IMG/VR virus record: IMGVR_UViG_3300021962_000122
Location: 1 to 58,552 of that record
DNA length: 58,552 bases
Strand: one strand, 5' to 3'
From: a virus
Lineage: Duplodnaviria > Caudoviricetes
Shown piece after piece: positions 8,994-31,258 of this stretch; within the stretch, counting starts at the first letter, position 1, and each line of letters starts with the position of its first letter. A program made the position numbers and the translations under genes. The notes under the pieces are model-generated. The model searched no databases, had not been told where the DNA came from, and saw only the letters and a list, made by a program, of their open reading frames with translations.

Positions 8994-11900
8994 ATGCCTC
9001 AAGCTGTCCCGTTACCAGATGGTAGTTACGTAGCAATCAGAGAGGGGGAGACCCCGCAGCAGGCATATGCCCGAGCGCAGCAGATGTACCCTGAGGCGTT
9101 TAGAGTAGCAGCCCCGGCAGCGCCAAAAGAAACTACGTTTGGCGGGCAGACCAAAGAATTTTTTAAAGGTCTTGTCCCCGGCGCTATCGGGCTTGTTGAA
9201 CAAGCGGGTACTGGTATCTCAGCACTGTTACCAGAAGAACAAGAAAAAGCCACTCAAAAATACATCAAAGAAACTGCTGCCGCAGCCAAAGCCCCGTTTG
9301 CCGCTGCGCCGGGGTATGAAGACACGGTGGGGCGCAAGTTTGGTGAAGCCGCAGGTTCTATTGCACCGTTCCTTGCCACTGGGCCGTTTGGTCTGGCAGG
9401 GCGTGTAGCCGGATACGGCCTTGGTGTTGGCGCTGGTGCTGGCACACAGGTAGAAAAGTCTGCCGCTGAAGGGGCTACAGAAGGACAGCAAACAGCCGCC
9501 ACCGCACTGGGTGCCGTGGTTGGCGCATCGGAGATGTTTGCCCCTGCACGTATTCTGAAGCGTCTTGGGGAGCCTGTGCTCGAGGGTGCCACGTCGTATG
9601 TGAAACGGGCATTGATGGCTGGCGGTGAGGAAGCCGCCCAAGAAGCCGCAGCACAAGCCGCACAGAATATTATTACCAAAGGTATATACAAACCTGAGCA
9701 AGAAATTATTGAGCAGGTTGGCGAGTCTGCCGCCTACGGCGGTGCGGTCGGTGCGTTGGCACAAGGGTTGTTGGACTTGGCCATTGGTCGTCGTGCGCCC
9801 ACAACCCCGCTTACAGACGAGGTAAAACAAGCCCGTGAAGAGGCGGCAGTGCAGGCAGAACAGGAAAAGATTCGCCTGAACAGTGTCGATTACGCCCAAG
9901 AAGTGTTCCAGAAAACGCAGGAATTGGAAGCTCAGCGTACTGCGCTCAAACAACAGTTGATTCCGATAAAAAAAGGCGTGTCCCCAGAAACAGACTACGC
10001 ACACAACCGCGACATCAACCGCCAGATCGAGGCCATCAACAAAGAACTCAAGCCGTTGGCTGATGAGTACGTGCGTGTCAAGCCTATTCTGAAACGTGCT
10101 GAGGAGGAAGCAAAGATTGCCAAGCTGACTCCGTACGAGTATGCGTTGGGCTTAAAACCAGAAGAAGTAGGGCAGAAACCTGCCGAGCCTGAGCTGTATG
10201 AACAGCAAATTGCCAAGCCGCCTGAGGCACCGAAGGCAGAGGATGTTGCAGCAAAGTATGCCGCACAGAGTATTCAGTTGGCCAATGACCAACAGCTATC
10301 AAGCGAGAAAAAACCAAACGACGCTGTTGCAGACTACGTTTCCTATCTGATGCGCGACCCCATGTTGGCCGATCAGATTGTGAATAAGCGGATGCAGCTG
10401 CCCGGCCTTCCAACTGGTGTGCGTAATTCAGCCGTACTGGACGCGTTGAAACTGCAACTGGCCCCCGGCTTCAAACAAGAGATGGAAACGCGCAAAGCCG
10501 CCTTTGGTGTGCCTAAAGCCGAAGAAGTCAAGACTCCAGAAGTACAGGCGTTCACTTCGTACATGGACGACCTCAAGAGCAAGCGCAACGACGTGGGCGA
10601 CGACATGTTCTTCAAGTACATGGTCGACCCAAAACTGGAGAAGATTGCGGAAGGTAAGCCCCCAGTCATAGCCGTAAACCCTGAGCTGAAACCCTTTGCC
10701 AACATCAAACGGGCAGAGCGTTCAAGGGAAAAAATAAACGGGTTGCTTGACAACATAGACCAAGCAAACGCAGACCGTGATGTGGCTTTGCGTTCTGGAA
10801 ACCGTGACGCTGCCGACGCAGCGTTTGAAAGAGGCCAAAAAGCGTTAGAACAAATTAATGCTTTTGTAGAACCTACACCCACTGGAGAAGTGACAAAGGG
10901 AAGGTTCCCAGCAGCGGCAACAGCCCCAGAATCCAGCATCTATGCCAAAGAAATACTGCGGGTTCGCAACGAACAGAACACGGCGTTAAACACCATTGAG
11001 GACAAGATTGACCGTCTGCGTCGTGGTGAGACATTGGGCAAAGAAGAAATGGCTGCCACATCGCCAGCCATACTGGCTCAGCAAGCCGAAGAAGCCCGTG
11101 GCAAATACATCTCTGCTGTACTGGAGGAAGCCGCTATCCACCGTCGTGTGGCTGGCAAACCTGAGTTGACCTACGACGAAGCCATCAAAGCCGCGTCTCG
11201 TATTCATGATGTGGTGGGGGAGTGGCTTGACCGTGCAAAGGCTGTACCCAAAAAGCCCGAGCTTGAAGAAGTGATCGTGCAGCCCGCGCAGATGCGGGCA
11301 AACAAACTTGTCCGTGGAGCTGTTACCAAACGTGTTTTGAAGACGCGTGATCTGGCCACAACGCCTTTAAACGAAATTGCACGCTTGAGCGACAAAGAAG
11401 TCAAACACTTCAAAGCTCAGATTGCCAAGGTTGTCGACAGCTTATCCGAATTGCCATCCACAGCCACTCGCGAAGTGCCCGTACTGAAGCAGCAGTTTGC
11501 TGCCACCGAAGCGCAGAAGGTTGCTGAAGCCAAAGGCGAGACAGCCAAGACCCTTGGCGGAGAGCTACGCCGCCTGCGTGAATACGTGGGCAACATGATT
11601 GACAAAGCGTTGACACGCAACCCACCGGAAGAAATACAAAATTCACTGGAACGCGTCAAAGAGATCATTGACGACGGCAAAGCCAGTAAAGAGTTACTTG
11701 ACGCAGCCCAGAATCAAGCTGCACGCATTCTGCGTGGCGAAGACCTCGGCAAGCAGGTGTACACAAAACGCGAAGCTGTCCCCGGCAAACGTGTTGTAGA
11801 AAATGTCCCCGGCAGAGAAGCTGAGACACGTTTTGGGGAACGCGGGCGCACATACAAGTCAGTGGGCTACGAAGCCGAACTGGCACCCGAGGGTAGCGCA

Positions 11901-14900
11901 CTGCGTGAGCTTCAAGATGCCATAAAGCTGTACGAACGTACAGCACAAGAAGGTGAAGTTGCGGGAGAAGGCGCAAAAGGCCAAGGGCAGTTGTTCCCAG
12001 AGACACGCAAAGAACTTGGCTACATCCGTGCCACACCAGCCAACTTTGCCAAGTCCCCACAGATCAAACCTGTATGGGAGGCGTTGGAACAAGCACGCAA
12101 GCTCAAGGCAAAAACAGAAGCCAACCAGAAAGCTCGTTCTGTCAGAGACAAACAAGGCTTTGCGCAAGTTGAAGCAATAGAAGAACAACTTGAAGCCATT
12201 AAAAACCAAATGCAGTTTTTCTTGCTTAAGCCGGGAGACTTCAATATTGGTAAATACTCAAATGCAGACATTGCAAAAATGTTTGCGTCATATCCAGAAG
12301 CAGGCGTTACAAAAGAAGACAAGCTGCTGATGGATCGGTACTTGCAAGTGTCTAGACAAAGTATTGGTAAAACAAAGGATCAACAAGAAAAAGCCATGTC
12401 CGTGTTTACTGCGGAAGAAAAGGCACGCGTAAATGAGTTAATCAGCGACTTCAACACAAACAAAATCCCTGAGTACGAAAAGAATGTTAAGCAGGCGCTG
12501 CAAGCGCTCTCATTGGGACAGCGTCTTGAAAGCACGAATAACCGTTTAGTTGAGTTGATGCAAGACAACAATGCGGCTGTGCGTAAACAATCAGAAGCAG
12601 CCCGCAAAACTGTTGAACCACTACTGGAGAAGTTAAAGCTTATCAAAGCCAGTTTGCGTAATTCTGTTTTGTTAACTGACGGCCAACGTGCAATGCTTGA
12701 TTCTGAAATTGCGTTGCAGTCACAACGTGGCGCATACAAAGACGCCATGGCCAAGGCAATGGGCAAAGCCCGTCAACGCCTGAGCGATACGTTGGGTGAG
12801 TTGCTTGACCCTGAAATTGAACGCGCACGTCGTGCGTTGAAAGCAGCCAAGACACGTTTGGCCACAGTCGAGTCGCAGATTGAAACGGCAAAGAAAGAAA
12901 TGACTGAGGGTACTGGCCAAGCGCCAAACCTGATTAACAACTTGCAAAAAGTTCAAGGGCTTGTTGAGAACATTGAGAAGGCTGAGACCGAACTGGCTGA
13001 CTTGCAAGAAGCACGCTTTGGTGAAATTGAGAACGACGTTGTTGTTACCGAAGCCATGCTGGACAAAGACCTCAAGGCAGAACGTGAGTACTTAGAACTG
13101 CTTGAGCGACAACTGGCTGATATGCGCAAAGAACCGTTGACTGCTGTAGAGCTTGGTGGTCGTGGTGAACTGGGCAAGTTGAAGTATCCGTTCTCTGCAC
13201 AACGTTTGGAAACACAAGTAAAGGCACAACAAGCGGCTGTTGATGAAGCGCAAAAGCGTGCTGAAGAATTCCAAAAAGACGTGCAGGTTTGGTGGCCCAA
13301 AGTTACTGCCGCATTCAAGAAAGATGGAATCAGCATCAAAGACTTGCCCGGCGCAGTGTTTAAGAAAGGCCGCAAAGTTGCTGAGATTGTTACGCCAGAA
13401 CAAAAACGCCTTGATGATTTACGTGACAAAGGTGTGCAGGCTGCAAAAGAAGTTGACGAAGCCGCAGTGCGTCAGCGGGTCAAAGACAAACAGATTCAAT
13501 TGTTCGATGACGAAATCTTTGATGCGCGTGGTGAAGTGCAGGCGTTTATGGGGCCTGAGGACATGGAAAAGTTGGCCGACATCATGGCTGACCCCAAGAC
13601 TACCAACGTCAAACGTGTACAGGCTACGCTCAAGCTGGGCGCTATGCAAAAAGTTGCTTCGTTGGAAGCACAAAAACAAGCGTTCATTGAGGGCAAGCCT
13701 GCACCAAAACCAAAAACTGCTACTGTGCCGAGCACCGTTGCGTTGGCGGCGGCTAAACCGTTTCGTACTGGCTCAGGCGTAGCAAAAGCGTTTACTCCAG
13801 CAGAAATGGATGAGCTGGCTCGCGCTGATATACGTGATGCCAATGAGTTGGCCAAAAAGATTCTGGGTACAAAAGCGCCGCAGTTGCCAGAACCAAGCAA
13901 ACGCAAGCAAGGCAAGATGCCTGACCCCAACCTTGGTTTGTTTGATGACTTTGAGTTTTCTCGCGGCACACCAGTTAAAGGTCTGACCAAGGCTGAGCTT
14001 GAAGCCGAACTCACTGCTGGTATGGGCGAGCCAGTTACTGGGCGCAAGATAGAAGCGATGGTGTCCAATAAATTGGCGGTGTATGAAAGTGTTCAAGATT
14101 TCCTTGACAAGCAACCAAAATTAAAAGGTGTAGGTAAGTCCAAATACGAGGGTTTAATCCCAGCAGATGCCAAAGGCTTTGTGCAAGATGGTAAAGCGGT
14201 ACTGTTTGCCAACAACATTGGTAAAGGCCACGGACTGGGCGTACTGCTCCACGAAGTCGGCGTGCATTTGGGATTCCGCAACTTCTTTAACGAAGGCCAG
14301 TACAACGCGTTGGTTAAGACAGTCAAGAACTGGGCAAACAAAACTGAAGACTCATTGGAAGCGCGTGTTGGTAAAGCCGCCGTGCGCAGGGTTGAGGCTG
14401 CTAACACTCCACCACACCAGATTGACGATGAGTTGTTGGCATACGCTGTTGAAGAAGCCATGCAGATGGGTGTAGAGCCTGTTGGCGTTAAAGGCGGCAA
14501 CGCAGTCAAAAACTGGTTGAAGATGGTGGTCGATGGGTTCAAGAAAGCGCTTGAGAAGTTTGGCATCACTTCTAAGAACTTGACTGCTGGCGACTTGGTT
14601 AACTTTGCCTACGGCGCAGCACACCTTGAACTCAAGGGAACTTGGCACGGCACAGGTGTTAAATTTGATATGTTTGACCATACGTACATGAGCACCGGGT
14701 CAAACGCACAAACGTATGGTTGGGGAACATACCGTGCACAAAAGTACGGCACTGCGCAGTCATATCAAATTGATGCAGCTACAAAACAGTACGACGATTG
14801 GGTTGAACGCCCAGATATACAAGCATGGCTTGAATCACAAAAACCTAAATTTACAGGTAAGTTGCCATCTGGTATTCCTGAGCAATTTTTAGTCATGCCT

Positions 14901-17900
14901 TTGGTTGAAGCCAATAACGCGTACGGAGGTCAAAACCCAAATAAAATTTTTAAAGAAGCTGTTCAAGGCGAAATTGAAAACATTGAAGAGGAAAGAAAAC
15001 AGTTTTCTAATTTAAGTAGTGCGCCGCGTGCTGTACTTGCATCACAAGTATCGCCTGCTAGGGCCGCAATAGCAGCGGCACAGTCTTCTGCACGCGTAAC
15101 TGCCAGACCCATAACTGCAACACCAGTTAGAAACTATGGGTACGGGCCTGTAACTAAACCTTTAAGTTGGCGTGTGGAATGGATGCGGGGGTTGTCTGAC
15201 GCAGAAGTAGATAAAAAAATTGAAGAGCTTAAAAAGTTTGCAGAAACTGCTGACGAACATTTAGAAGCGGTCAATCAATTTCCTGTCTATAAAGGCAAAG
15301 AATACATTGAGTTGTACAAAGCGTACCCCACTGCCGCAAAGGTCATACACGCATTTGACAAAATGATGGACGCCAACCAAGGCACACCACCGTCTTGGAA
15401 AGAAGCTATTGCCAGTGTGAAAGCTGAAGCAAGCAAAAGCGTAAAAGAGTTGGGGGAGTTTTTTGAACGTTTTACATACGGAAAAGACCCGTACACAAAA
15501 CAGGTGTACGACGAAGCAAAAGAAACTTTACGTGACATTGATGCGTTTGACATAAACGACTTTAAGTACAACCCTCCGTCTGGGCCACCTGTACCTGAAC
15601 CAGCAGGTTACATGATGCGCACGTTGCACACACGTCCTGAGAACGAGTACATTCTTTATGACAGCCTTGCAGACAAACAACCAGAAGTTGTTAAAGATGC
15701 GTTTAAACGTATCTACGATAATTTAGATAAAAAACAACAAGCTGTTTTTAACCGTTCAATAGGCTTTGTACGACCAGATCGGCAAAACGGGCGCGATTTG
15801 TATAACGCTTTAAGTGCCGTGCTTGAACAAGGCGGTATGCCTAGTAAGTTGTGCGACATGTTTGCATCTGAAATGCTGCATGCCGAAGGTGTTGCTGGTA
15901 TTAAGTTTTTTGACGGCGTGTCAAGATACTCAGCAGCACAAGGTACTCCGGGCACATACAACTACGTTGACTTTGGTGACAAAGATGAAGGTGCGCAGAT
16001 CATTGCCACCGACATTAATCCGATCAATCAAACACAGCCAATGCAAAAAAGCGAGATACTGTTCTCGCGTTCAGAAGAGTTTACAAACCCTGAGCTTGCC
16101 AAACAAAGCAAGTTTATTGCCAAAATTGTGGCCAAGCAAAGAAGCTGGTCTGAAAAGATTAAAGCCAATACAACCGGGCTGGCTTTTGAAACACAGCTTG
16201 TAGATAGATTTGCAGGCTTCGAGCGTTTGGCCAAATACATGGATCCGGTCAAAGGCACGCAGATGATGTACTACCTGCGCATGTATGACCAACGCATGAA
16301 TTTTGTGTCTCAAGCAGTATCCAATGGCGCACCGGCAATCGTGGAGAAAACACGGCCTGACGGCAAGGTTGAGCGTTTGATTGAGAGCAAAGAGAGCGCC
16401 AACATCCACAATGTTGTTCAGATTTTGAAAGAAGCCCAGCCAATGGTTGGCAACGCAGAAGCTGTAAACCGCATATTCACTTTGTACATGGCCGCTATTC
16501 GTGCGGACAACAAAGGATTGTCTTCATTGAACTTTGGTGAAGACGTTACACAAGAACTGCTCAACGAAACCATGGCCGCCATAAAGGCCACACCCGGCTT
16601 GGAAAAAGTTTTGAAGCAAGCTAAAGATGAGTACAACGCCTACAACCGTAATTTGGTTGAGTTTGTTGTCAGCACTGGCGCTCTTTCCAAAGAAGTCGGC
16701 AAGCGTCTGCTGAGCGAAAACGATTACATACCGTTCTACCGTGAACGCAATGGCGTGGCTGAGCTTGTTATTGGCAACGAATCTCCTATCCGCATTGGTA
16801 GTATTGCTGAGCAGCCGTATCTGCATGAACTTGTTGGTGGCGACAGGCCCATCCTCGACTTCATGACCAGCTCGGTGCAGAACACCAATCTGTTGATGGA
16901 CATGGGTATGCGCAACTTGGCAACCAAGAACGCTGTGTTTGAGCTGGTTGATTTGAAAGCTGCCAAGTTTGTGAAAATGTCTGCTGGCCCAGACGTTGTT
17001 AAATTCAAAGACAACGGAGAAGATCGCTACGCAGTGCTGGCTACCGAAAAAGTAAAAATTGGCAACAAAGAGTTTGATACTGGCGTTCCTGCCGACATAT
17101 TGGTCAAAGGCATGGAGGGCATCCCAACACAGATGCCAGCAATGTTACGCGTCATGGCGTTCCCAGCACAGATACTGCGCAAAGCTATTACCCTCAGCCC
17201 TTTGTACACAGCCAAACAGTTGTTCCGTGACTCCGTGGCCGCGCCTATTCTTTCTGGCGCAGACTTCATGCCTGTCATTGGTGCGCTGAAAGAAATCAAC
17301 TCCACCACCAAGCAGACGCTTGAGCGCCGTGGTGTTACCGGAGGCCAGCAGTTTGTTGGTGGTGCCGAAGATTTGACCAAGATTCTGCGTGATGTGTCTG
17401 AGGGCAAACCGGGCTGGATGACTGCGCTTGGTAAGCTTGAAGCCATGAGTATGGAAGCAGATGCCGCAACACGTCGCGCCCAGTACAACAGCTACATTCA
17501 GCAGGGCCTGTCTGAGATGGAAGCAACACTGCTGTCGTTGGAGTCCATGAACTTCAACAAGCGCGGCGCGTCACCATCAATCCATGTGGCCAACTCCCTG
17601 ATACCTTTTTTCAACGCACAGATTCAAGGTCTGAACGTGTTGTACAAAGCGTCTATGGGCAAGATGCCATTCAACGATCAGCTGCGTATCCGTGAAAAAA
17701 TGATGCAGCGTGGTGCCATGATGGCAGTTGCAAGCCTTGCTTACGCCGCCTTGATGCAGGACGACGAAGCTTACAAAAACGCCACACCCGATCAAAAATA
17801 CGGCAATTGGTTTATTCGTGTGCCGGGTTTAGACGAACCCATCAAACTCCCTGTGCCGTTTGAAATCGGTTACATCTTCAAGGCGTTGCCTGAGGCAATA

Positions 17901-18656
17901 CTCAACAGCATGGTGAACGAGCACGGCGGTGAGGAAGCGGTCAAAGCTTTCAAACAAATCCTGCTTCAAACAGTTCCCGGCGGTTCGTCTTACGGCATCC
18001 CGCAGATCATGAAACCCGCCATCGAAGCAGGACTTGGCAAGTCGTTCTACACAGGTAGGGACATCTTGTCTGCGCGAGAGAAAGAGTTGTTGCCTGAAGA
18101 ACAGTTCCGCGCCAACACATCCGAGCTGGCTAAAGGTATTGGTAAAACACTGGGTATCTCTCCGATTGTGTTTGAGCAACTTGTCAGTGGTTACACCGGC
18201 ACAATGGGTTTGGCATTTATGCACGCACTTAGTGTTGGCGTGCCTACGGATGAGAGTCCTGATAAAGCAGTTAAACGTTTGTCAGAGTACCCAATCGTTG
18301 GTGGGGCGTTCCAACCAAACGACGCTGGTGGCATCATCAACAGCGTGTACGAGCGCATGAATGAAAATCTCAAGGTCAAGAACACCTTCAATAAGTTGGC
18401 ACAAGAAGGCAGAATGTCTGAAGCTATGGCGTTGCTTCAACGTCGTGGTAATGAGTTCATGCAAGCAGACTTGGCGAACAGTTTCAAAGCCAACATGAAC
18501 AAACTTGCTCAGGCTGAACGGGCAATTGCAGCATCCAACATGTCCCCCGAAGCCAAGCGCGAACAGCTGGACAAAATCAGGAAGATAAAGATCGCCGTTG
18601 CTCAAACGGTGAGAGAGGTTTCCGATAAAACCATACGCCTAACAAGCCCCTTCTAA
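8994..18656 (+). CDS. Giant polyvalent virion protein: coiled coils, zincin-like peptidase, ART-like domain, LPD38-like C-terminus
   Basis: 3220-aa ORF containing LLHEVGVH...DDELLAY, WHGT...TG...AQTYGWGTY...GIKFFD...YNYVDF, and C-terminal IPFFNAQIQG...LPVPFEIG. Confidence 0.75.
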   Translation: MPQAVPLPDGSYVAIREGETPQQAYARAQQMYPEAFRVAAPAAPKETTFGGQTKEFFKGLVPGAIGLVEQAGTGISALLPEEQEKATQKYIKETAAAAKAPFAAAPGYEDTVGRKFGEAAGSIAPFLATGPFGLAGRVAGYGLGVGAGAGTQVEKSAAEGATEGQQTAATALGAVVGASEMFAPARILKRLGEPVLEGATSYVKRALMAGGEEAAQEAAAQAAQNIITKGIYKPEQEIIEQVGESAAYGGAVGALAQGLLDLAIGRRAPTTPLTDEVKQAREEAAVQAEQEKIRLNSVDYAQEVFQKTQELEAQRTALKQQLIPIKKGVSPETDYAHNRDINRQIEAINKELKPLADEYVRVKPILKRAEEEAKIAKLTPYEYALGLKPEEVGQKPAEPELYEQQIAKPPEAPKAEDVAAKYAAQSIQLANDQQLSSEKKPNDAVADYVSYLMRDPMLADQIVNKRMQLPGLPTGVRNSAVLDALKLQLAPGFKQEMETRKAAFGVPKAEEVKTPEVQAFTSYMDDLKSKRNDVGDDMFFKYMVDPKLEKIAEGKPPVIAVNPELKPFANIKRAERSREKINGLLDNIDQANADRDVALRSGNRDAADAAFERGQKALEQINAFVEPTPTGEVTKGRFPAAATAPESSIYAKEILRVRNEQNTALNTIEDKIDRLRRGETLGKEEMAATSPAILAQQAEEARGKYISAVLEEAAIHRRVAGKPELTYDEAIKAASRIHDVVGEWLDRAKAVPKKPELEEVIVQPAQMRANKLVRGAVTKRVLKTRDLATTPLNEIARLSDKEVKHFKAQIAKVVDSLSELPSTATREVPVLKQQFAATEAQKVAEAKGETAKTLGGELRRLREYVGNMIDKALTRNPPEEIQNSLERVKEIIDDGKASKELLDAAQNQAARILRGEDLGKQVYTKREAVPGKRVVENVPGREAETRFGERGRTYKSVGYEAELAPEGSALRELQDAIKLYERTAQEGEVAGEGAKGQGQLFPETRKELGYIRATPANFAKSPQIKPVWEALEQARKLKAKTEANQKARSVRDKQGFAQVEAIEEQLEAIKNQMQFFLLKPGDFNIGKYSNADIAKMFASYPEAGVTKEDKLLMDRYLQVSRQSIGKTKDQQEKAMSVFTAEEKARVNELISDFNTNKIPEYEKNVKQALQALSLGQRLESTNNRLVELMQDNNAAVRKQSEAARKTVEPLLEKLKLIKASLRNSVLLTDGQRAMLDSEIALQSQRGAYKDAMAKAMGKARQRLSDTLGELLDPEIERARRALKAAKTRLATVESQIETAKKEMTEGTGQAPNLINNLQKVQGLVENIEKAETELADLQEARFGEIENDVVVTEAMLDKDLKAEREYLELLERQLADMRKEPLTAVELGGRGELGKLKYPFSAQRLETQVKAQQAAVDEAQKRAEEFQKDVQVWWPKVTAAFKKDGISIKDLPGAVFKKGRKVAEIVTPEQKRLDDLRDKGVQAAKEVDEAAVRQRVKDKQIQLFDDEIFDARGEVQAFMGPEDMEKLADIMADPKTTNVKRVQATLKLGAMQKVASLEAQKQAFIEGKPAPKPKTATVPSTVALAAAKPFRTGSGVAKAFTPAEMDELARADIRDANELAKKILGTKAPQLPEPSKRKQGKMPDPNLGLFDDFEFSRGTPVKGLTKAELEAELTAGMGEPVTGRKIEAMVSNKLAVYESVQDFLDKQPKLKGVGKSKYEGLIPADAKGFVQDGKAVLFANNIGKGHGLGVLLHEVGVHLGFRNFFNEGQYNALVKTVKNWANKTEDSLEARVGKAAVRRVEAANTPPHQIDDELLAYAVEEAMQMGVEPVGVKGGNAVKNWLKMVVDGFKKALEKFGITSKNLTAGDLVNFAYGAAHLELKGTWHGTGVKFDMFDHTYMSTGSNAQTYGWGTYRAQKYGTAQSYQIDAATKQYDDWVERPDIQAWLESQKPKFTGKLPSGIPEQFLVMPLVEANNAYGGQNPNKIFKEAVQGEIENIEEERKQFSNLSSAPRAVLASQVSPARAAIAAAQSSARVTARPITATPVRNYGYGPVTKPLSWRVEWMRGLSDAEVDKKIEELKKFAETADEHLEAVNQFPVYKGKEYIELYKAYPTAAKVIHAFDKMMDANQGTPPSWKEAIASVKAEASKSVKELGEFFERFTYGKDPYTKQVYDEAKETLRDIDAFDINDFKYNPPSGPPVPEPAGYMMRTLHTRPENEYILYDSLADKQPEVVKDAFKRIYDNLDKKQQAVFNRSIGFVRPDRQNGRDLYNALSAVLEQGGMPSKLCDMFASEMLHAEGVAGIKFFDGVSRYSAAQGTPGTYNYVDFGDKDEGAQIIATDINPINQTQPMQKSEILFSRSEEFTNPELAKQSKFIAKIVAKQRSWSEKIKANTTGLAFETQLVDRFAGFERLAKYMDPVKGTQMMYYLRMYDQRMNFVSQAVSNGAPAIVEKTRPDGKVERLIESKESANIHNVVQILKEAQPMVGNAEAVNRIFTLYMAAIRADNKGLSSLNFGEDVTQELLNETMAAIKATPGLEKVLKQAKDEYNAYNRNLVEFVVSTGALSKEVGKRLLSENDYIPFYRERNGVAELVIGNESPIRIGSIAEQPYLHELVGGDRPILDFMTSSVQNTNLLMDMGMRNLATKNAVFELVDLKAAKFVKMSAGPDVVKFKDNGEDRYAVLATEKVKIGNKEFDTGVPADILVKGMEGIPTQMPAMLRVMAFPAQILRKAITLSPLYTAKQLFRDSVAAPILSGADFMPVIGALKEINSTTKQTLERRGVTGGQQFVGGAEDLTKILRDVSEGKPGWMTALGKLEAMSMEADAATRRAQYNSYIQQGLSEMEATLLSLESMNFNKRGASPSIHVANSLIPFFNAQIQGLNVLYKASMGKMPFNDQLRIREKMMQRGAMMAVASLAYAALMQDDEAYKNATPDQKYGNWFIRVPGLDEPIKLPVPFEIGYIFKALPEAILNSMVNEHGGEEAVKAFKQILLQTVPGGSSYGIPQIMKPAIEAGLGKSFYTGRDILSAREKELLPEEQFRANTSELAKGIGKTLGISPIVFEQLVSGYTGTMGLAFMHALSVGVPTDESPDKAVKRLSEYPIVGGAFQPNDAGGIINSVYERMNENLKVKNTFNKLAQEGRMSEAMALLQRRGNEFMQADLANSFKANMNKLAQAERAIAASNMSPEAKREQLDKIRKIKIAVAQTVREVSDKTIRLTSPF

Positions 18657-27513: not shown

Positions 27514-29481
27514 TCATGATTTTGCTAACCCGTACCTACGGTGAGCGCCACCGTCAGCGGCCAGAGGTATCCCCGGCATGTAACTCGGTTCCATAGTCAT
27601 CTGCGCCAAGACCCAAGTCTTAGCGTCAGCAACTTCTTCATCCGGCACAACAGCTATTAACTCGTCGTGCACCGTGCCAGCGATGGGGTACTTCTTCGAT
27701 ACCCTCAACATGCCATCCGTCATCACGATTCTGGCAAGCGCTTGCGTCACATTATTCGTTACTTTACCAGCATACAGCTTCGTTGCATGCTCTCCGTACA
27801 CCCACTGCGTTCTGCCTTTGTGATCTAACTCAGGGCGCAAGTTGGGGTACAGAAGTTTCATTCCGTTCGGCAATTCTATCTCGCCTTTTCGGAATGTCAA
27901 ACACTTGTGCTGGTACTCTTTACCCAGATACAGCGACTTGTGTATGAGTTCGCTGAACAGCCCCCACATGGACACAATTGGCCAAGCAGTACGGCGATAG
28001 GTGTCGATGATTGCCTTGGCGGCAAGGGCATGTGTCAGGAGTTCTTTGTCAGAACAAGTGTGTGGGATGTCGAACAGCTTGCTATCGTTGCCGTCCCAGC
28101 TGGCAAACTCCTGCGCGTACTCAGAGTTAACCCCTAACGCTTTGGCAAAGTCCTTGGAGTACCTGACAGGCGGCGCACCAAGGAAGCCTGTCAGAAGTTG
28201 CGACGCGAACGATGCCCAACCAAGCCCATACCCACAACCAAGTAACGCGCTCTTTGCAGACTGCCGCAAGTCTGGGTGGCTGTCCTTAGTAAGTCCGGGT
28301 ATGTTAAACATCTGCGCTCCGAACGCCGCGTAAGGGTCACCGCCTGCCCTGAAGATGTCGAGCATGTCTGTGTAGTCAGCCAGCCACGCAAGTACTCGCG
28401 GTTCAATCTGCGATAAGTCGCCAACAACGAGCTGGTAGCCTTCGGGAGCCATAATCGCTTTGCGTAAGAAACTTCCGCGCTTGAGGTTTTGCATGTTGAT
28501 TGCTGAACCTTTTGCCGCCGTCCAACGACCCGAGAGAGCGCCGTAATACGAGAGCGGAACCGGTAGTTTGCCGCGCTGGCTAATGTCAAGGAAGCGTTGT
28601 GCACGCGTGCGCTCGGTTGTGGATTTAACTTTAAGGCGTGCTTCACAAAGGAGGGCAACATCTTCACGTTCACCGTTGAGCATCGCTTGGAAGAGGGCGT
28701 CATTCTTTGCAAAAGCGTACGTCGTTTTGCCGGTAGTTTTACTGACCTTAGTCGGGGGAGTAACCCCGAGGCTTTCAAGTATGTTTGCAAACTTCGGGTT
28801 CGACGCGAGTTCAGTCTCCTGTATGCCGAGTCTTTGTAATAGTCCTTCACGCAACTCTCCTTCTTCTGTTAATGCTTTGATGAGCATCTTGCTGTCAAGC
28901 TCAAGCTGTGGTCGTGTGTACATTTTGAGCGTCATGTCGATCAGACGCAGTTCGGATTTGGGATAACCGGCTCCAAGTCGTTTGAAGATTTCCTCGCACA
29001 GGTACACATCATGGGCACAGTAGTCGGCGAGTTCTCGTTCAATGGTAACGTCCAGTTCGAGTAATCCGTCGGTGCTGTGTACAGCTGTGCCTTTAGCAGG
29101 GAGTCCAAAATCTTGAGCAAGTTTCGCGAGGGAATTACCAACCTCCACGCCGCGTAAAGCTCTTGCCATTGATAACGTGTCGAAGATGAAGGCAGGATGG
29201 GCGTTGTATACCCACTCCATAATGGATACATCGAACTGTGCGTTGTGCGCAAGCACTGCGGTTCGTCCCCAATTGATTCCAGAAAAGTATTCACGTAGTC
29301 CATCTCCTCCAACCCATTTAATTGGGTCATCGCTTCCGAACTCATGTACGCATGCTCCAAATGCTTTGAACCTTTTGTCACGTATGTACTCCTCAGTTGT
29401 AAGTTTTGATAGCGTGTAGTCCTTCTTATCCCACCGAGTTTCAAAGTCGATGGCGACTATCTTGTCAAATGTTTTTGTCAA
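27514..29481 (-). CDS. polA: Family A DNA polymerase (3'-5' exonuclease plus polymerase, no 5'-3' exonuclease)
   Basis: Exo motifs DFET, HNAQFD and YCAHD; motif A DLSQIE, motif B RQSAKSALLGCGYG, motif C VHDE. TTG start coupled to the upstream TGA. Confidence 0.92.
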   Translation of the reverse strand: MTKTFDKIVAIDFETRWDKKDYTLSKLTTEEYIRDKRFKAFGACVHEFGSDDPIKWVGGDGLREYFSGINWGRTAVLAHNAQFDVSIMEWVYNAHPAFIFDTLSMARALRGVEVGNSLAKLAQDFGLPAKGTAVHSTDGLLELDVTIERELADYCAHDVYLCEEIFKRLGAGYPKSELRLIDMTLKMYTRPQLELDSKMLIKALTEEGELREGLLQRLGIQETELASNPKFANILESLGVTPPTKVSKTTGKTTYAFAKNDALFQAMLNGEREDVALLCEARLKVKSTTERTRAQRFLDISQRGKLPVPLSYYGALSGRWTAAKGSAINMQNLKRGSFLRKAIMAPEGYQLVVGDLSQIEPRVLAWLADYTDMLDIFRAGGDPYAAFGAQMFNIPGLTKDSHPDLRQSAKSALLGCGYGLGWASFASQLLTGFLGAPPVRYSKDFAKALGVNSEYAQEFASWDGNDSKLFDIPHTCSDKELLTHALAAKAIIDTYRRTAWPIVSMWGLFSELIHKSLYLGKEYQHKCLTFRKGEIELPNGMKLLYPNLRPELDHKGRTQWVYGEHATKLYAGKVTNNVTQALARIVMTDGMLRVSKKYPIAGTVHDELIAVVPDEEVADAKTWVLAQMTMEPSYMPGIPLAADGGAHRRYGLAKS

Positions 29482-29747
29482 TTGAATGCCTCTTTAGGGG
29501 GTGCGTCGATAGTGTTTAAGAATCCGAAAAAAGTGTTGACCTCCAACAGCATTTCTGCGGCATCCATCTCGTCACAGTTCATTGTGGTGAGCGTTGTCAA
29601 TTCACCGTTTGTTTTGACCATCAACACCGCTTGATTTGGGTCAGCGCCGTAGCATGTGATGAGCGCCAGCACTGCCATCTTGAAGTGCATCTTCTCATCG
29701 TCGTCCATCATTGCCAGTCTTTTCTCTATGTCTTGTTCGAGTTCCAT
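29478..29747 (-). CDS. Hypothetical protein
   Basis: GAGG RBS before ATG 29747. Coupled to polA. Confidence 0.6.
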   Translation of the reverse strand: MELEQDIEKRLAMMDDDEKMHFKMAVLALITCYGADPNQAVLMVKTNGELTTLTTMNCDEMDAAEMLLEVNTFFGFLNTIDAPPKEAFN

Positions 29748-30028
29748 GTTATTACCTCTCTGAGTTCGTTTATGTTGTCTTCGTTTACCACCATTGCCAC
29801 TCCCCCTGCGCTTCTTATGCGGCGCATATGTTCTTCTTGCAGTGCGGTTGGTTTGTTCTTCCCCGCCTTTGCCTCTACCCCAATGAACATGCCATTGGCG
29901 CATATAAGAAAGTCTGGCACCCCTGAGTTGCCGTAACCTGTGCCGATTGGCATGGCGTAGTACACGCCCAGCTCATCCAACAGTTTCCTGATTTGTTTTT
30001 TAACTTTTACTTCGGGTGTCGATGCCAT
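29726..30028 (-). CDS. VRR-NUC domain nuclease (possible junction resolvase)
   Basis: TPE...GVPD...EAK...PTALQ motif. Confidence 0.85.
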   Translation of the reverse strand: MASTPEVKVKKQIRKLLDELGVYYAMPIGTGYGNSGVPDFLICANGMFIGVEAKAGKNKPTALQEEHMRRIRSAGGVAMVVNEDNINELREVITWNSNKT

Positions 30029-30048
30029 ACAGTTTCCTTTGAATTGGT

Positions 30049-30202
30049 GAGGGGGTCAAGTAGATTCCGCGCCCCCTCGATTCGCGGTTGGAAAGCTGAA
30101 CAACAGCGTTTTTTCCAATAGCTAAGCGGCGCTGCTGTTCGTGGTGCAATGGTCACATCTACTAGGTTTGCACAGACCACATCAATATACTCCCGCTTAG
30201 CC
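30049..30202 (-). ncRNA. Multiply pseudoknotted structured RNA
   Basis: Seven mutually compatible complementary segments cover most of the intergenic region. G-U pairs favour the minus strand. Confidence 0.7.
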
Positions 30203-30204
30203 GA

Positions 30205-30387
30205 TTACCATGTTGCCGCCTCTGCTTGGTCAAGCGTGTGCCGCCTTGCAGTGGTTTCGTGTTGTTTGTGAATACGTTCCAGTATCTTTGGGTCTACCCG
30301 CTCGAACGGGTTCCATTTGTTTTGTTCGACACGTTCCCTGACGCTAGCCGTTTTCTTCTGTTTTCTGTCAGCATTTGTTTTAACCAT
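30205..30387 (-). CDS. Hypothetical protein
   Basis: Short ORF (WNPFERVDPKIL) that overlaps the upstream ORF. Confidence 0.35.
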   Translation of the reverse strand: MVKTNADRKQKKTASVRERVEQNKWNPFERVDPKILERIHKQHETTARRHTLDQAEAATW

Positions 30388-30488
30388 TTGGTTGCCCCCA
30401 GTAACTTCCATTCTTCGTACTGCCACGCAGTCAAACGTGTACCAATGCGTTTCTGTGTAGTTGTCAATTCAGTCTTAGGTCTTGGCAT
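30294..30488 (-). CDS. Small basic protein, ribbon-helix-helix-like
   Basis: MPRPK...IGTRLT...LGATKWLK pattern. GGAG RBS. Confidence 0.55.
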   Translation of the reverse strand: MPRPKTELTTTQKRIGTRLTAWQYEEWKLLGATKWLKQMLTENRRKRLASGNVSNKTNGTRSSG

Positions 30489-30623
30489 TTGTGGTTTTCT
30501 CCGGCAGCCTTGGTTAAAAAGATAAGGTAGCAGTTGCTGCACCGCCATACAAGTCCTTCTTGCACGACAGTCCTGCGCTCACCATGTGAGCCGCGCACTT
30601 TACCAAAAAATGTTCTGATTTTT

Positions 30624-31040
30624 TCAAGCATTGTTCTTCTCCTTCAACTTTGCCTCTGCCCACCACACTGCTGATTGAAAAGCCTGTTCAGTTACCCAAG
30701 ATTCTTTACAGCCCTGTGCAATTTCCTCATCCGTCAGCCCTACCCATGTGCGCTGTGGTGCTGGCGCAATAGCAAGATGGCATCGCAATTCATTAGCCAA
30801 ACGATATGCTTTACTTAAATACTCTTCCTGCTCTGGCTGTGGTGCGCCCAAAAACTTTTGAACATTTACCTCATGTCGCTGTTTTTGCATTTCATCGACA
30901 TATTCCTTTGATATGTCGTTGGTAGCGACATTTGCCAAGGCTTTTTCAACAATAGAAATAGCTTCTGCTGTTCCGCATGGCTCACCGCCATGACAATATT
31001 TCAACACCGCAAGCACCAGCTTCAATTCTTCTTGTGTCAT
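30624..31040 (-). CDS. Hypothetical protein with WVGLTDEEI...EAKLKEKN tail
   Basis: Coupled ORF ending in a recurrent phage C-terminal motif. Confidence 0.6.
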   Translation of the reverse strand: MTQEELKLVLAVLKYCHGGEPCGTAEAISIVEKALANVATNDISKEYVDEMQKQRHEVNVQKFLGAPQPEQEEYLSKAYRLANELRCHLAIAPAPQRTWVGLTDEEIAQGCKESWVTEQAFQSAVWWAEAKLKEKNNA

Positions 31041-31258
31041 GTGTAATCTCCTTCCTCTGTATGCTCCATCAGCCGTGCGGTCAGCCGAGCAATGCGTTGT
31101 TCGTTGTATCGAATAGCCGCATTCGCATACTCCGCCGCAGTCTCAGCTTCCAACTTGCGCAAGTGTGCTTCACGCAGTTCAGTGGCAATGACTTCGTTAA
31201 TAGTCCTAAGCCTCAACACGTCCTTGATGTATTTGATGGTTGTGGTTCTGAAGCTCAT
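31037..31258 (-). CDS. Hypothetical coiled-coil protein
   Basis: ATGA-coupled ORF. Confidence 0.55.
   Translation of the reverse strand: MSFRTTTIKYIKDVLRLRTINEVIATELREAHLRKLEAETAAEYANAAIRYNEQRIARLTARLMEHTEEGDYT

What the first reader, a model, noticed from the sequence alone, without database searches (positions are those of the whole stretch)
30049..30202. Densely pseudoknotted ~155-nt RNA upstream of the nuclease/polymerase genes
Seen (+ coordinates, folds on the - strand): 30121-30129/30193-30201 (9 bp); 30141-30149/30168-30180 (bulged); 30098-30108/30130-30140 (11 bp, G-U only on the minus strand); 30088-30094/30112-30118; 30067-30071/30083-30087; 30049-30055/30072-30078; and long-range 30059-30065/30157-30163. 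All seven are non-overlapping, several cross one another, and they use most of the spacer, ending about 20 nt before the VRR-NUC start. This density seems unlikely by chance. Inference: an unrecognised ribozyme, riboswitch-like leader or protein-binding phage ncRNA. This is my best candidate for a new system in the window.
Basis: partly seen in the sequence, partly recalled or inferred. Interest (0 to 1): 0.88.

Follow-up and report, generated by a model that had tools for sequence, protein, structure and literature searches.

The report
New multi-pseudoknot phage RNA family
The spacer in front of this phage's nuclease and DNA polymerase genes encodes a real, conserved, heavily knotted RNA of about 160 bases that matches no described RNA family, and its 3' end resembles the acceptor end of a tRNA.

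Summary
Six of its seven helices are kept by compensatory changes in 66 distinct homologues from uncultured, mostly freshwater, phage contigs. These are P1, P2, B, S1, S2 and the long-range loop-loop helix D. The seventh helix (30088-30094/30112-30118) is not conserved. The fold is on the minus strand and is RNA: G-U cells outnumber A-C cells 178 to 29. The covariance model scores 36-198 bits on the sense strand and at most 29 bits on the antisense strand.

No Rfam 15 family matches the window or 11 diverse members. ARAGORN finds nothing.

The element fills the whole gap between two genes. The upstream stop codon lies in or just before P1, and the next start codon lies about 20 nt after S2.

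The 3' H-type pseudoknot is a 5 + 7 bp stack. It is followed directly by A-C-C/U, and this tail moves with the helix end when S2 is shorter.

My best reading, at about 0.3, is a mimic of the tRNA acceptor/T arm that host RNase P reads as a processing signal. Function is not shown. A protein operator, a riboswitch and a ribozyme all remain open.

First readers of this scan noted the same element in two other genomes.

The parts
30193..30202 (-). P1, 5' strand. It contains a stop triplet (30197-30199). In relatives the helix extends outward by up to 4 pairs.
   Evidence: (96.1% paired, 9 of 9 pairs covary)
30171..30180 (-). P2, 5' strand
   Evidence: 84.2% paired, 10 of 10 covary. In the window itself 2 of 10 positions are mismatched.
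30157..30163 (-). D, 5' strand. It lies in the 9-nt apical loop of P2, which is closed by two further pairs (30166-30167 with 30155-30156).
30141..30151 (-). P2, 3' strand
30130..30140 (-). B, 5' strand. It directly abuts the P1 3' strand, and B and P1 cross (first pseudoknot).
   Evidence: 96.5% paired, 11 of 11 covary
30120..30129 (-). P1, 3' strand. It lies in the loop of B.
30098..30108 (-). B, 3' strand
30088..30097 (-). Junction between B and S1. It is pyrimidine-rich with a conserved U-C-C core and a nearly invariant last A (30088). Its role is unknown.
   Evidence: (helix about 52% paired)
30083..30087 (-). S1, 5' strand (5 bp)
   Evidence: (5 of 5 pairs in 63 of 67 sequences)
30079..30082 (-). 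Loop 1 of the H-type pseudoknot. It is 1-4 nt long in relatives, and its first A is nearly invariant. This is the predicted RNase P cleavage zone (after 30079).
   Evidence: The cleavage is inference only.
30072..30078 (-). S2, 5' strand (G-rich, 7 nt). It is continuous with the S1 3' strand, giving one unbroken 12-nt strand.
   Evidence: 99.8% paired
30067..30071 (-). S1, 3' strand
30059..30065 (-). D, 3' strand. It lies inside loop 3 of the S1/S2 pseudoknot and pairs with the P2 loop about 95 nt upstream.
30049..30055 (-). S2, 3' strand
30045..30048 (-). Single-stranded tail A-C-C-A directly after the last S2 pair. A-C-C or A-C-U is found in nearly all members, and the tail tracks the helix end.
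30026..30039 (-). Shine-Dalgarno-like purine run (30034-30039) and the ATG (30026-30028) of the downstream gene
29726..30028 (-). Downstream gene: a 100-aa nuclease of the VRR-NUC / Holliday-junction-resolvase type
   Evidence: Hjc hit, E 0.0091, below Pfam's cut-off; phrog_93 endonuclease, 5.6e-16; phrog_5702 HJ resolvase
30205..30387 (-). Upstream small ORF (60 aa from the ATG at 30387). Its stop codon (30205-30207) lies 2 nt before P1. Homologues occupy the same place in L083, L096 and L135.

Best explanation
Shown: a single-copy structured RNA of about 160 nt is read from the minus strand as part of the mRNA. It fills the gap between an early small gene and the replication genes.

It has two pseudoknotted halves. 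In the 5' half, P1 crosses B, and the hairpin P2 sits between their strands. The 3' half is a classical H-type pseudoknot (S1 of 5 bp, S2 of 7 bp). Its third loop pairs with the apical loop of P2 to form helix D.

Inferred, at about 0.3: the S1/S2 stack mimics the 12-bp acceptor/T-arm helix of a tRNA, and its A-C-C tail mimics the 3' end. Helix D may stand in for the tRNA elbow. Host RNase P would recognise this mimic and cut in loop 1, just 5' of the first S2 pair (after 30079).

That cut would separate the early message from the replication message. The downstream message would start with a flush 5' hairpin, which should protect it from 5'-end-dependent decay. The upstream message would end in the knotted P1/P2/B domain.

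The cut itself, the enzyme and the effect on stability are all inference.
For: (1) The structure is real. Six helices covary. The sense-strand bias is clear.

(2) The geometry fits a tRNA arm. S1 is 5 bp and S2 is 6-7 bp. S1 + S2 = 12 bp in 82 of 109 rows, though the rows include a few chance hits. The S2 5' strand runs into the S1 3' strand with no nucleotide between them. Loop 1 is 1-4 nt in most rows.

(3) The three nucleotides after the last S2 pair are ACC in 70 rows and ACU in 16 rows of 109. About 12 further rows are ACC, ACU or GCC read one place late by my script. The tail follows the helix end when S2 is 6 bp or has another sequence (L065, L114, L147, L152, L162, L171, L199).

(4) The first S2 pair is G-C in 89 of 109 rows.

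(5) Every common tail variant (A to G at the first place, C to U at the third) keeps pairing with a 5'-GGU-3'. That is the RNase P RNA motif that pairs with tRNA positions 73-75 (PMC11143913, passages read).

(6) There is precedent. E. coli RNase P cuts an H-type pseudoknot in loop 1, but only when an RCCA motif follows (PMC12710915, abstract and introduction read). Phage C4, CI and M3 RNAs, T4 gene 32 mRNA and operon mRNAs are known RNase P substrates (PMC11143913 and PMC5499578, passages).

(7) The element sits between genes of many unrelated families. That fits a generic punctuation signal better than control by, or of, one particular protein.
Against: No cleavage has been observed. The only RNA data are assembled contigs, and one of them runs uncut across the proposed site (record 5, 29994-30207).

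The tail is not universal. L117 and L125 have AAU and AAC, and L169 has AUC.

A minimal RNase P substrate does not need the large 5' domain or helix D. My elbow analogy is a guess.

The strand that is continuous through the stack is the opposite one from that in a real tRNA.

The near-invariant sequence of S2 and of most of D would also fit recognition by a protein, or a catalytic or ligand-binding core.

Conservation of the S2 5' strand, the S1 3' strand and D3' was partly forced by my search patterns. However, the 64 loci found through the nuclease protein alone show the same conservation.
Confidence: 0.3

Rival explanations
1. A translational operator bound by a phage or host protein, working like the T4 gene 32 leader. 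A pseudoknot nucleates protein binding, which then spreads over the A/U-rich linker to the ribosome-binding site of the next gene.
For: The element ends 16-45 nt before the next start codon, commonly about 20 nt. The linker after S2 is A/U-rich and unpaired. Helix sequences in S2 and D are nearly invariant, as expected if a macromolecule reads them. The T4 gene 32 leader is a pseudoknot upstream of a replication gene (PMC10690425 section 2.6, passage).
Against: The downstream gene varies: nuclease, small ORFs, polymerase, 329-387 aa proteins. The upstream gene varies too, with at least 8 families. So no flanking gene can be a constant autoregulator, and the binding protein would have to be encoded elsewhere. 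No candidate was found. The SSB gene is not adjacent.
Confidence: 0.2
2. A riboswitch. The knotted core binds a small molecule or ion and changes translation of the replication genes.
For: It is a complex pseudoknotted fold with about a dozen conserved unpaired nucleotides. It sits in a leader-like position in front of a start codon. There is one copy per genome.
Against: The neighbouring genes have no metabolic or transport theme. The ribosome-binding site is not part of any conserved helix. No terminator follows the element.
Confidence: 0.15
3. A self-cleaving ribozyme of a new class that cuts the polycistronic transcript between early and replication genes.
For: It has several crossing helices and a compact conserved core, as in the HDV, twister and glmS ribozymes (recalled). 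It is intergenic in phages, where several ribozyme classes are common. A minimal form (L174) keeps only P2, S1, S2 and D.
Against: No known class matches. By my reading of the strand order, the topology differs from HDV-like ribozymes. An RNA-library contig spans the whole element uncut, though contigs cannot exclude cleavage.
Confidence: 0.12
4. A stable RNA that acts in trans or on the transcription machinery. Examples are a tRNA-like decoy against host tRNA-targeting defences, or a processive antitermination RNA that acts on RNA polymerase in the long leftward operon.
For: The end is tRNA-like. The element is present or absent in otherwise syntenic relatives, like an accessory function. It lies inside a roughly 23-kb block of minus-strand genes.
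Against: No discrete RNA ends have been shown. The acceptor-like tail is internal, not a free 3' end. There is only one copy, in mid-operon, rather than just after a promoter.
Confidence: 0.13
5. It is not an RNA. It is a conserved DNA linker or cruciform used for module exchange or replication.
For: Homology between relatives starts exactly at the 5' edge of the element, while the upstream genes differ. RNA-library contigs also break there.
Against: G-U cells outnumber A-C cells 178 to 29, so the pairing works on one strand only. The model scores 36-198 bits on the sense strand against at most 29 bits on the antisense strand. Crossing helices with compensatory changes are not expected of a DNA linker.
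Confidence: 0.02

Closest known systems
tRNA-like structures at the 3' end of plant RNA viruses (TYMV type)
   Same: An H-type pseudoknot builds an acceptor-arm mimic of about 12 stacked pairs that is followed by ACCA. These structures are RNase P substrates in vitro (PMC12710915 introduction; PMC11143913 passage).
   Different: Those structures sit at the free 3' end of an RNA genome, are aminoacylated, and also have T, anticodon and D arm mimics (recalled). This element is internal to a phage mRNA. It has no detectable cloverleaf parts (ARAGORN none; no Rfam hit) and a different 5' domain. The fourth tail position is not kept: A 40, U 38, C 31 of 109 rows.
Engineered pseudoknot substrates of RNase P (biotin aptamer with a 3' GCCAC trailer; Kosek et al. 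2025, PMC12710915)
   Same: An H-type pseudoknot is cut in loop 1, and the cut depends on an RCCA motif after the second stem. This is the same arrangement of loop 1, stem and tail as here.
   Different: It is an artificial substrate that is cut inefficiently. That paper calls in vivo targeting of pseudoknots an open question. The element here is natural, much larger, and untested.
T4 gene 32 mRNA leader pseudoknot
   Same: A phage pseudoknot lies upstream of a replication gene and is followed by an unstructured A/U-rich stretch up to the ribosome-binding site. The gene 32 mRNA was also the first mRNA reported as an RNase P substrate (PMC11143913 passage).
   Different: It is a single small pseudoknot that regulates its own gene (SSB). 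Here the downstream genes vary and none is an SSB. No sequence or model similarity could be tested, because Rfam holds no model of it (PMC10690425 passage).
Phage RNAs matured by RNase P (P1/P7 C4, P4 CI, phi80 M3)
   Same: These are phage-encoded non-tRNA RNAs whose 5' ends are made by host RNase P acting on a hairpin-like acceptor mimic (PMC5499578 and PMC11143913, passages).
   Different: They are small regulatory RNAs built on simple hairpins, from temperate coliphages. There is no pseudoknot and no intercistronic position between protein genes.
T7 intercistronic RNase III sites (recalled, not checked in a paper here)
   Same: Conserved structured spacers between phage genes. Cleavage there punctuates a long transcript and leaves protective hairpins.
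   Different: They are simple irregular hairpins cut by a double-strand-specific enzyme, and there are many copies per genome. This element has one copy, is pseudoknotted, and has a tRNA-like end.

Membership tests
Any Rfam 15 family (riboswitches, ribozymes, tRNA-like elements, phage RNAs) | Score at or near the family's covariance model threshold | tested here: not met
   There were 0 hits at gathering score in the whole window. There were 0 hits at E <= 10 in 29800-30600. In 11 diverse member loci, nothing hit at the element at E <= 5.
tRNA / tmRNA | Cloverleaf or tmRNA architecture detectable by ARAGORN | tested here: not met
   0 genes in the window.
H-type RNA pseudoknot (structural class) | Two stems with the strand order S1a-S2a-S1b-S2b, both kept by compensatory change | tested here: met
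   S1 is 98.7-99.0% paired and 3 of 5 pairs covary. S2 is 99.8% paired and 3 of 7 pairs covary. Each was also counted in an alignment whose model lacked it.
H-type RNA pseudoknot (structural class) | Loop lengths able to span the stems (a short loop 1 across the deep groove of S2, a longer loop 3 across S1) | tested here: met
   Loop 1 is 1-4 nt in 97 of 109 rows. There are 0 nt between S2a and S1b. Loop 3 is 10-12 nt.
Bacterial RNase P substrate (acceptor-arm mimic) | A coaxial helix of about 12 bp that ends at the cleavage site | tested here: met
   S1 + S2 = 12 bp in 82 rows, 11 bp in 11 rows and 13 bp in 10 rows, of 109 (the rows include some chance hits).
Bacterial RNase P substrate (acceptor-arm mimic) | R-C-C(A) directly 3' of the helix, able to pair with the GGU of RNase P RNA | tested here: met
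   The tail is ACC in 70 rows and ACU in 16 rows of 109. GCC is seen in a few. The exceptions are L169 (AUC) and L117/L125 (AAU, AAC). The pairing rule is from PMC11143913.
Bacterial RNase P substrate (acceptor-arm mimic) | Actual cleavage by RNase P at the 5' side of the first helix pair | not testable with these tools
   Only assembled contigs of RNA libraries were available. They cannot show RNA ends.
Riboswitch | Repeated association with genes of one pathway or transporter, and a conserved expression platform (terminator, or sequestered ribosome-binding site) | tested here: not met
   The downstream genes are a nuclease, a polymerase and unknown ORFs. No terminator follows. The ribosome-binding site lies outside all conserved helices.
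Riboswitch | Specific ligand binding | not testable with these tools
   This needs in-line probing or similar.
Programmed frameshift or readthrough stimulator | The reading frame continues through or past the pseudoknot into a fused product | tested here: not met
   After the upstream stop, another stop blocks the same frame in 48 of 51 loci, the -1 frame in 46 of 51 and the +1 frame in 47 of 51, all before the next start codon. The next gene has its own ribosome-binding site.
Gene 32-type autoregulatory leader | The regulated downstream gene encodes the binding protein (SSB) | tested here: not met
   The downstream gene is of the nuclease type in 48 of 64 loci, and the others vary.

The most novel reading that the evidence does not exclude
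Phages of uncultured freshwater bacteria carry a natural, ornate mimic of the upper half of a tRNA. It is built from three interlocked pseudoknots and placed between genes. Host RNase P reads it as a punctuation mark. If so, it would be the first natural pseudoknot shown to be an in vivo RNase P target in an mRNA. The 5' domain and the loop-loop helix would form a new kind of elbow mimic. Failing that, the element would be a new class of ribozyme or riboswitch.
Probability: 0.3. Interest if true: 0.85.

Novelty: new variant of a known kind. Interest (0 to 1): 0.8.

Why it matters
Well-supported new RNA folds of this complexity are rare. This one has six covarying helices, three of which cross others, in about 160 nt. 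Each previous case has turned out to be a ribozyme, a riboswitch or a machine-binding RNA.

The family is abundant. It lies at the border between early and replication genes of a group of uncultured phages.

If the acceptor-end reading is right, it answers a question that the RNase P literature calls open: whether pseudoknots in mRNAs are targeted in vivo (PMC12710915). It would also give a compact, portable RNA processing signal.

If that reading is wrong, the alignment and model still define a clean orphan RNA class that is ready for biochemical work.

Tried and rejected
- Single-sequence folding: z = -1.31. This is not informative for a pseudoknotted RNA.

Rejected as a conserved feature. 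In relatives its 5' strand is instead used by an outward extension of P1.

- Recoding (frameshift, readthrough, bypass): rejected.

- Sigma-70 promoter or intrinsic terminator at the element: 0 promoter-like sites in 29600-31100. The 4 terminator-like sites are not at the element.

- DNA similarity to GenBank phages: none. The polymerase is only 30-33% identical to those of Rhizobium and Pseudomonas phages, so no cultured relative could be examined.

- Prophage or host search: 9 pattern hits in 185,579 species genomes. Only L199, a 6.5-kb contig binned with a Rhodoferax MAG, is a real element at 32 bits. The other 8 are chance matches inside coding sequence. Binning is weak evidence for a host.

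- RNA libraries: X15 holds an exact 214-nt contig, 29994-30207. An X16 contig stops at 30206. X17 and X18 contigs cross that point. I first read the shared break as an RNA end. I rejected that reading because homology between co-occurring strains also starts there, and that alone breaks assembly graphs. These libraries may also contain DNA. They support neither expression level nor processing.

- Cas12a repeat mimicry: the D helix resembles the repeat stem as I recall it. Rejected, because D changes sequence freely while staying paired and the strand order is reversed.

- HDV-like topology: compared by hand. The strand order differs.

- Pairing between the pyrimidine-rich junction (30088-30097) and the ribosome-binding site: considered and not tested formally. 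Any such pairing would be trivial by base composition.

- Papers: four searches found no description of this motif. PMC10690425 lists 10,006 unnamed candidates from IMG/VR and other viral data in supplements that I could not open, so the motif may be listed there without a name. No sequence comparison with the gene 32 leader was possible.

- The metagenome-contig scan, protein structure tools and complex prediction were not used.

Full report
**What is there.** The finding lies on the minus strand between a small ORF that ends at 30205 and a 100-aa nuclease gene that starts at 30028. The nuclease is of the VRR-NUC / Holliday-junction-resolvase type (Hjc hit below cut-off; phrog_93, 5.6e-16). 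A family A DNA polymerase follows at 27514-29481.

**Chance.** Folding the window's own sequence gives no signal: MFE -52.4 kcal/mol, z = -1.31, and 20 of 200 shuffles fold as well. That program cannot form crossing helices, so the question had to be put to homologues.

**Homologues.** I searched IMG/VR with the nuclease protein. Of 157 candidate stretches, 151 were relatives, and 80 loci were kept, at 68-98% protein identity. A motif of the spacer is present in 64 of these 80 loci. One more locus (L036) is cut off at its edge and gives a partial model hit. The other 15 have the nuclease gene without the element.

Together this gave 120 copies and 66 distinct 185-nt sequences besides the window.

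Caveat: the pattern fixes part of S2, S1 and D3', so invariance of those letters in pattern-derived loci is forced. The protein-derived set shows the same core without that bias.

**Structure.** RNAalifold on a 10-sequence seed recovered P1, P2 and S2. I built two covariance models from that seed, because one model cannot hold crossing helices. R1 holds P1, P2 and S2. R2 holds P2, B and S1.

R1 found the element on the sense strand in 66 of the 89 sources searched, at 35.7-198.1 bits. It also gave L169 at 23.9 bits and a cut-off hit in L036. Antisense hits reached at most 29.2 bits. There were no hits in the 15 nuclease loci without the motif, nor in 6 loci that held only chance pattern matches.

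Pair counts on the R1 alignment (63 distinct rows):

| Helix | Paired | Pairs changed on both sides |
|---|---|---|
| P1 | 96.1% | 9 of 9 |
| P2 | 84.2% | 10 of 10 |
| D | 99.1% | |
| S1 | 98.7% | |
| S2 | 99.8% | |
| B | 54.6% | |

Pair counts on the R2 alignment (63 distinct rows):

| Helix | Paired | Note |
|---|---|---|
| B | 96.5% | 11 of 11 pairs covary |
| P1 | 80.5% | not in this model |
| D | 99.1% | |
| S1 | 99.0% | |
| S2 | 99.8% | not in this model |

On the R2 alignment the whole structure is 91.8% paired, against 39.4-50.9% with partners slid by 1-3 columns. The covariation score is 0.469 against 0.055-0.090. None of 500 shuffles reaches the observed value.

So P1, S1, S2 and D are each supported in an alignment that was not fitted to them. 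B is supported only where it was in the model. In addition, unconstrained folding of the segment between P2 and S1 gave a helix with strands of 6 nt or more at that place in 59 of 67 sequences.

**Helix D.** D looked nearly invariant, so I ran a second scan with a pattern that leaves loop 3 free. Among 85 distinct elements, 75 have a perfectly complementary 7-bp D helix, drawn from 9 different pair types that differ at 4 of the 7 positions. Seven have one mismatch. The long-range loop-loop pairing is therefore real.

**RNA, not DNA, and which strand.** In the helices, G-U plus U-G cells number 178, and A-C plus C-A cells number 29, of 2946 cells. On the other strand, or in a DNA cruciform, these numbers would be reversed.

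**Anatomy (5' to 3' on the minus strand).**
- P1 5' strand: 30202-30193.
- P2 hairpin: 30180-30141. Its 9-nt apical loop carries D5' (30163-30157).
- B 5' strand: 30140-30130.
- P1 3' strand: 30129-30120.
- A variable loop.
- B 3' strand: 30108-30098.
- A pyrimidine-rich junction: 30097-30088.
- S1 5' strand: 30087-30083.
- Loop 1: 30082-30079.
- S2 5' strand: 30078-30072.
- S1 3' strand: 30071-30067.
- One unpaired A.
- D3' strand: 30065-30059.
- Three unpaired nucleotides.
- S2 3' strand: 30055-30049.
- Tail A-C-C-A: 30048-30045.
- Ribosome-binding site, then the ATG at 30028.

P1 crosses B. S1 crosses S2. D crosses almost everything. P1 and B have entirely different sequences in different subfamilies. 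One relative (L174) lacks both and keeps only P2, S1, S2 and D. So the core is the 3' pseudoknot clasped by the P2 loop, and P1/B is a peripheral clamp.

**Context.** The element has one copy in the window.

Upstream, 55 ORFs of at least 45 aa end between 16 nt inside and 12 nt before the detected start of P1. They fall into 8 unrelated multi-member clusters and 4 singletons. In many loci the stop codon is a triplet inside the P1 5' strand. In the window, the stop is 2 nt before P1.

Downstream, the start codon lies 16-45 nt after S2, commonly about 20 nt (three start calls by my script are doubtful). Of the 64 downstream ORFs, 48 are of the nuclease type, and 2 more are probably miscalled nuclease genes. 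The rest are small unknown ORFs, one DNA polymerase, and proteins of 329-387 aa.

Recoding is excluded. Further stops block all three frames before the next start in 46-48 of 51 loci.

The element is thus an intercistronic module. It is tied to a position (the start of the replication block) rather than to one gene.

**Known families.** No Rfam 15 family matches the whole window at gathering score, the region at E <= 10, or 11 diverse members at E <= 5. ARAGORN finds no tRNA or tmRNA.

Four literature searches found no description. A 2023 screen of IMG/VR lists 10,006 unnamed candidates in supplements that I could not open. Its main text does not mention a motif at nuclease or polymerase genes.

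Two first-reader notes of this scan describe the same element in other genomes and stress a 7-bp stem followed by ACCA. That led me to test the tail.

**The tail.** The three nucleotides after the last S2 pair are ACC in 70 rows and ACU in 16 rows of 109. About a dozen further rows are the same tails or GCC read one place late, and some rows are chance hits. The real exceptions are L169 (AUC) and L117/L125 (AAU, AAC).

The tail moves with the end of the helix when S2 has 6 pairs or another sequence. S1 + S2 is 12 bp in 82 of 109 rows. The first S2 pair is G-C in 89 rows.

A 12-bp stack that begins with G-C and is followed by A-C-C is what the acceptor and T stems of a bacterial tRNA look like. 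Positions 73-75 are what the GGU of RNase P RNA pairs with (PMC11143913, passages). E. coli RNase P cuts an H-type pseudoknot in loop 1 when, and only when, an RCCA motif follows the second stem. The authors call in vivo targeting of pseudoknots an open question (PMC12710915, abstract and introduction).

**Mechanism.** I therefore put first, at about 0.3, that host RNase P cuts after 30079. That cut would split the early message from the replication message and leave the latter with a flush 5' hairpin.

This is inference from geometry and conservation. No cut has been seen, and the large 5' domain is not explained by it. My idea that D mimics the tRNA elbow is only a guess.

The rivals are a protein-bound operator (0.2), a riboswitch (0.15), a new ribozyme (0.12), and a trans-acting or polymerase-directed RNA (0.13). 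A DNA-level element (0.02) is contradicted by the strand asymmetry.

**RNA libraries.** Contigs of four RNA-library runs overlap the region. One exact contig covers 29994-30207. They show presence in such libraries and nothing more. The shared contig break at 30206/30207 coincides with the edge of homology between strains.

**Host and phage.** No cultured relative was found. The runs that hold the DNA are labelled mostly freshwater, lake, estuary or drinking water. One real copy lies on a short contig binned with a Rhodoferax MAG, which is weak evidence for a host.

**Verdict.** This is a real and apparently undescribed RNA family with an unusually knotted fold and a tRNA-like 3' end. Its function is open. 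The decisive tests are ordinary bench experiments.

Noticed in passing
window 30205-30488 (minus strand): Two small conserved ORFs overlap in different frames by about 94 nt. One is a 64-aa basic protein (30294-30488). By eye its sequence pattern resembles a ribbon-helix-helix regulator. The other is a 60-aa ORF (30205-30387). Each has homologues that sit directly upstream of the element in other loci. In L108 the first one is instead the gene downstream of the element.
   Followed up: partly
Loci L008, L010, L027, L071 and others, last codons of the upstream ORFs: Unrelated upstream proteins end in similar residues (for example ...NKG...QQG...SKD). This is because their last 3-4 codons and their stop codon are encoded by the conserved outer part of the P1 5' strand. 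The element seems to supply the stop codon for whatever gene is joined to it.
   Followed up: partly
L066-L068, L072-L080 compared with L008, L012, L014: The same gene order occurs with and without the element: a DUF3310-like small protein by its sequence (my recall), then the nuclease. Without the element, the stop and start codons nearly touch. This is a presence/absence polymorphism in otherwise syntenic phages.
   Followed up: partly
window 8994-18656 (+): A single ORF of 3,220 aa, about a sixth of the genome. I did not examine it.
   Followed up: no
window 30528-30547 (minus strand): A terminator-like hairpin with a T-rich tail lies just upstream of the 64-aa ORF. It is the only such site on the sense strand near the element.
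   Followed up: no
window 30702-30775: In the RNA-library run X15 this bin has a summed contig depth of 2585, against tens elsewhere. Many contigs also have loose ends at 30719-30724 and 30759-30760. A roughly 40-nt stretch here is shared with many other sequences in that sample.
   Followed up: no
window 29726-29747: The nuclease gene and the next ORF (29478-29747, 89 aa, no family hit) overlap by 22 nt.
   Followed up: no
L114, L147, L152: In one sub-branch the element does not sit at the nuclease gene. It sits beside a 393-aa ORF that looks to me like an ATPase, and 387-410 aa proteins with an HExxH-like motif. In this sub-branch S2 has 6 G-C pairs and D has a G-C outer pair.
   Followed up: partly
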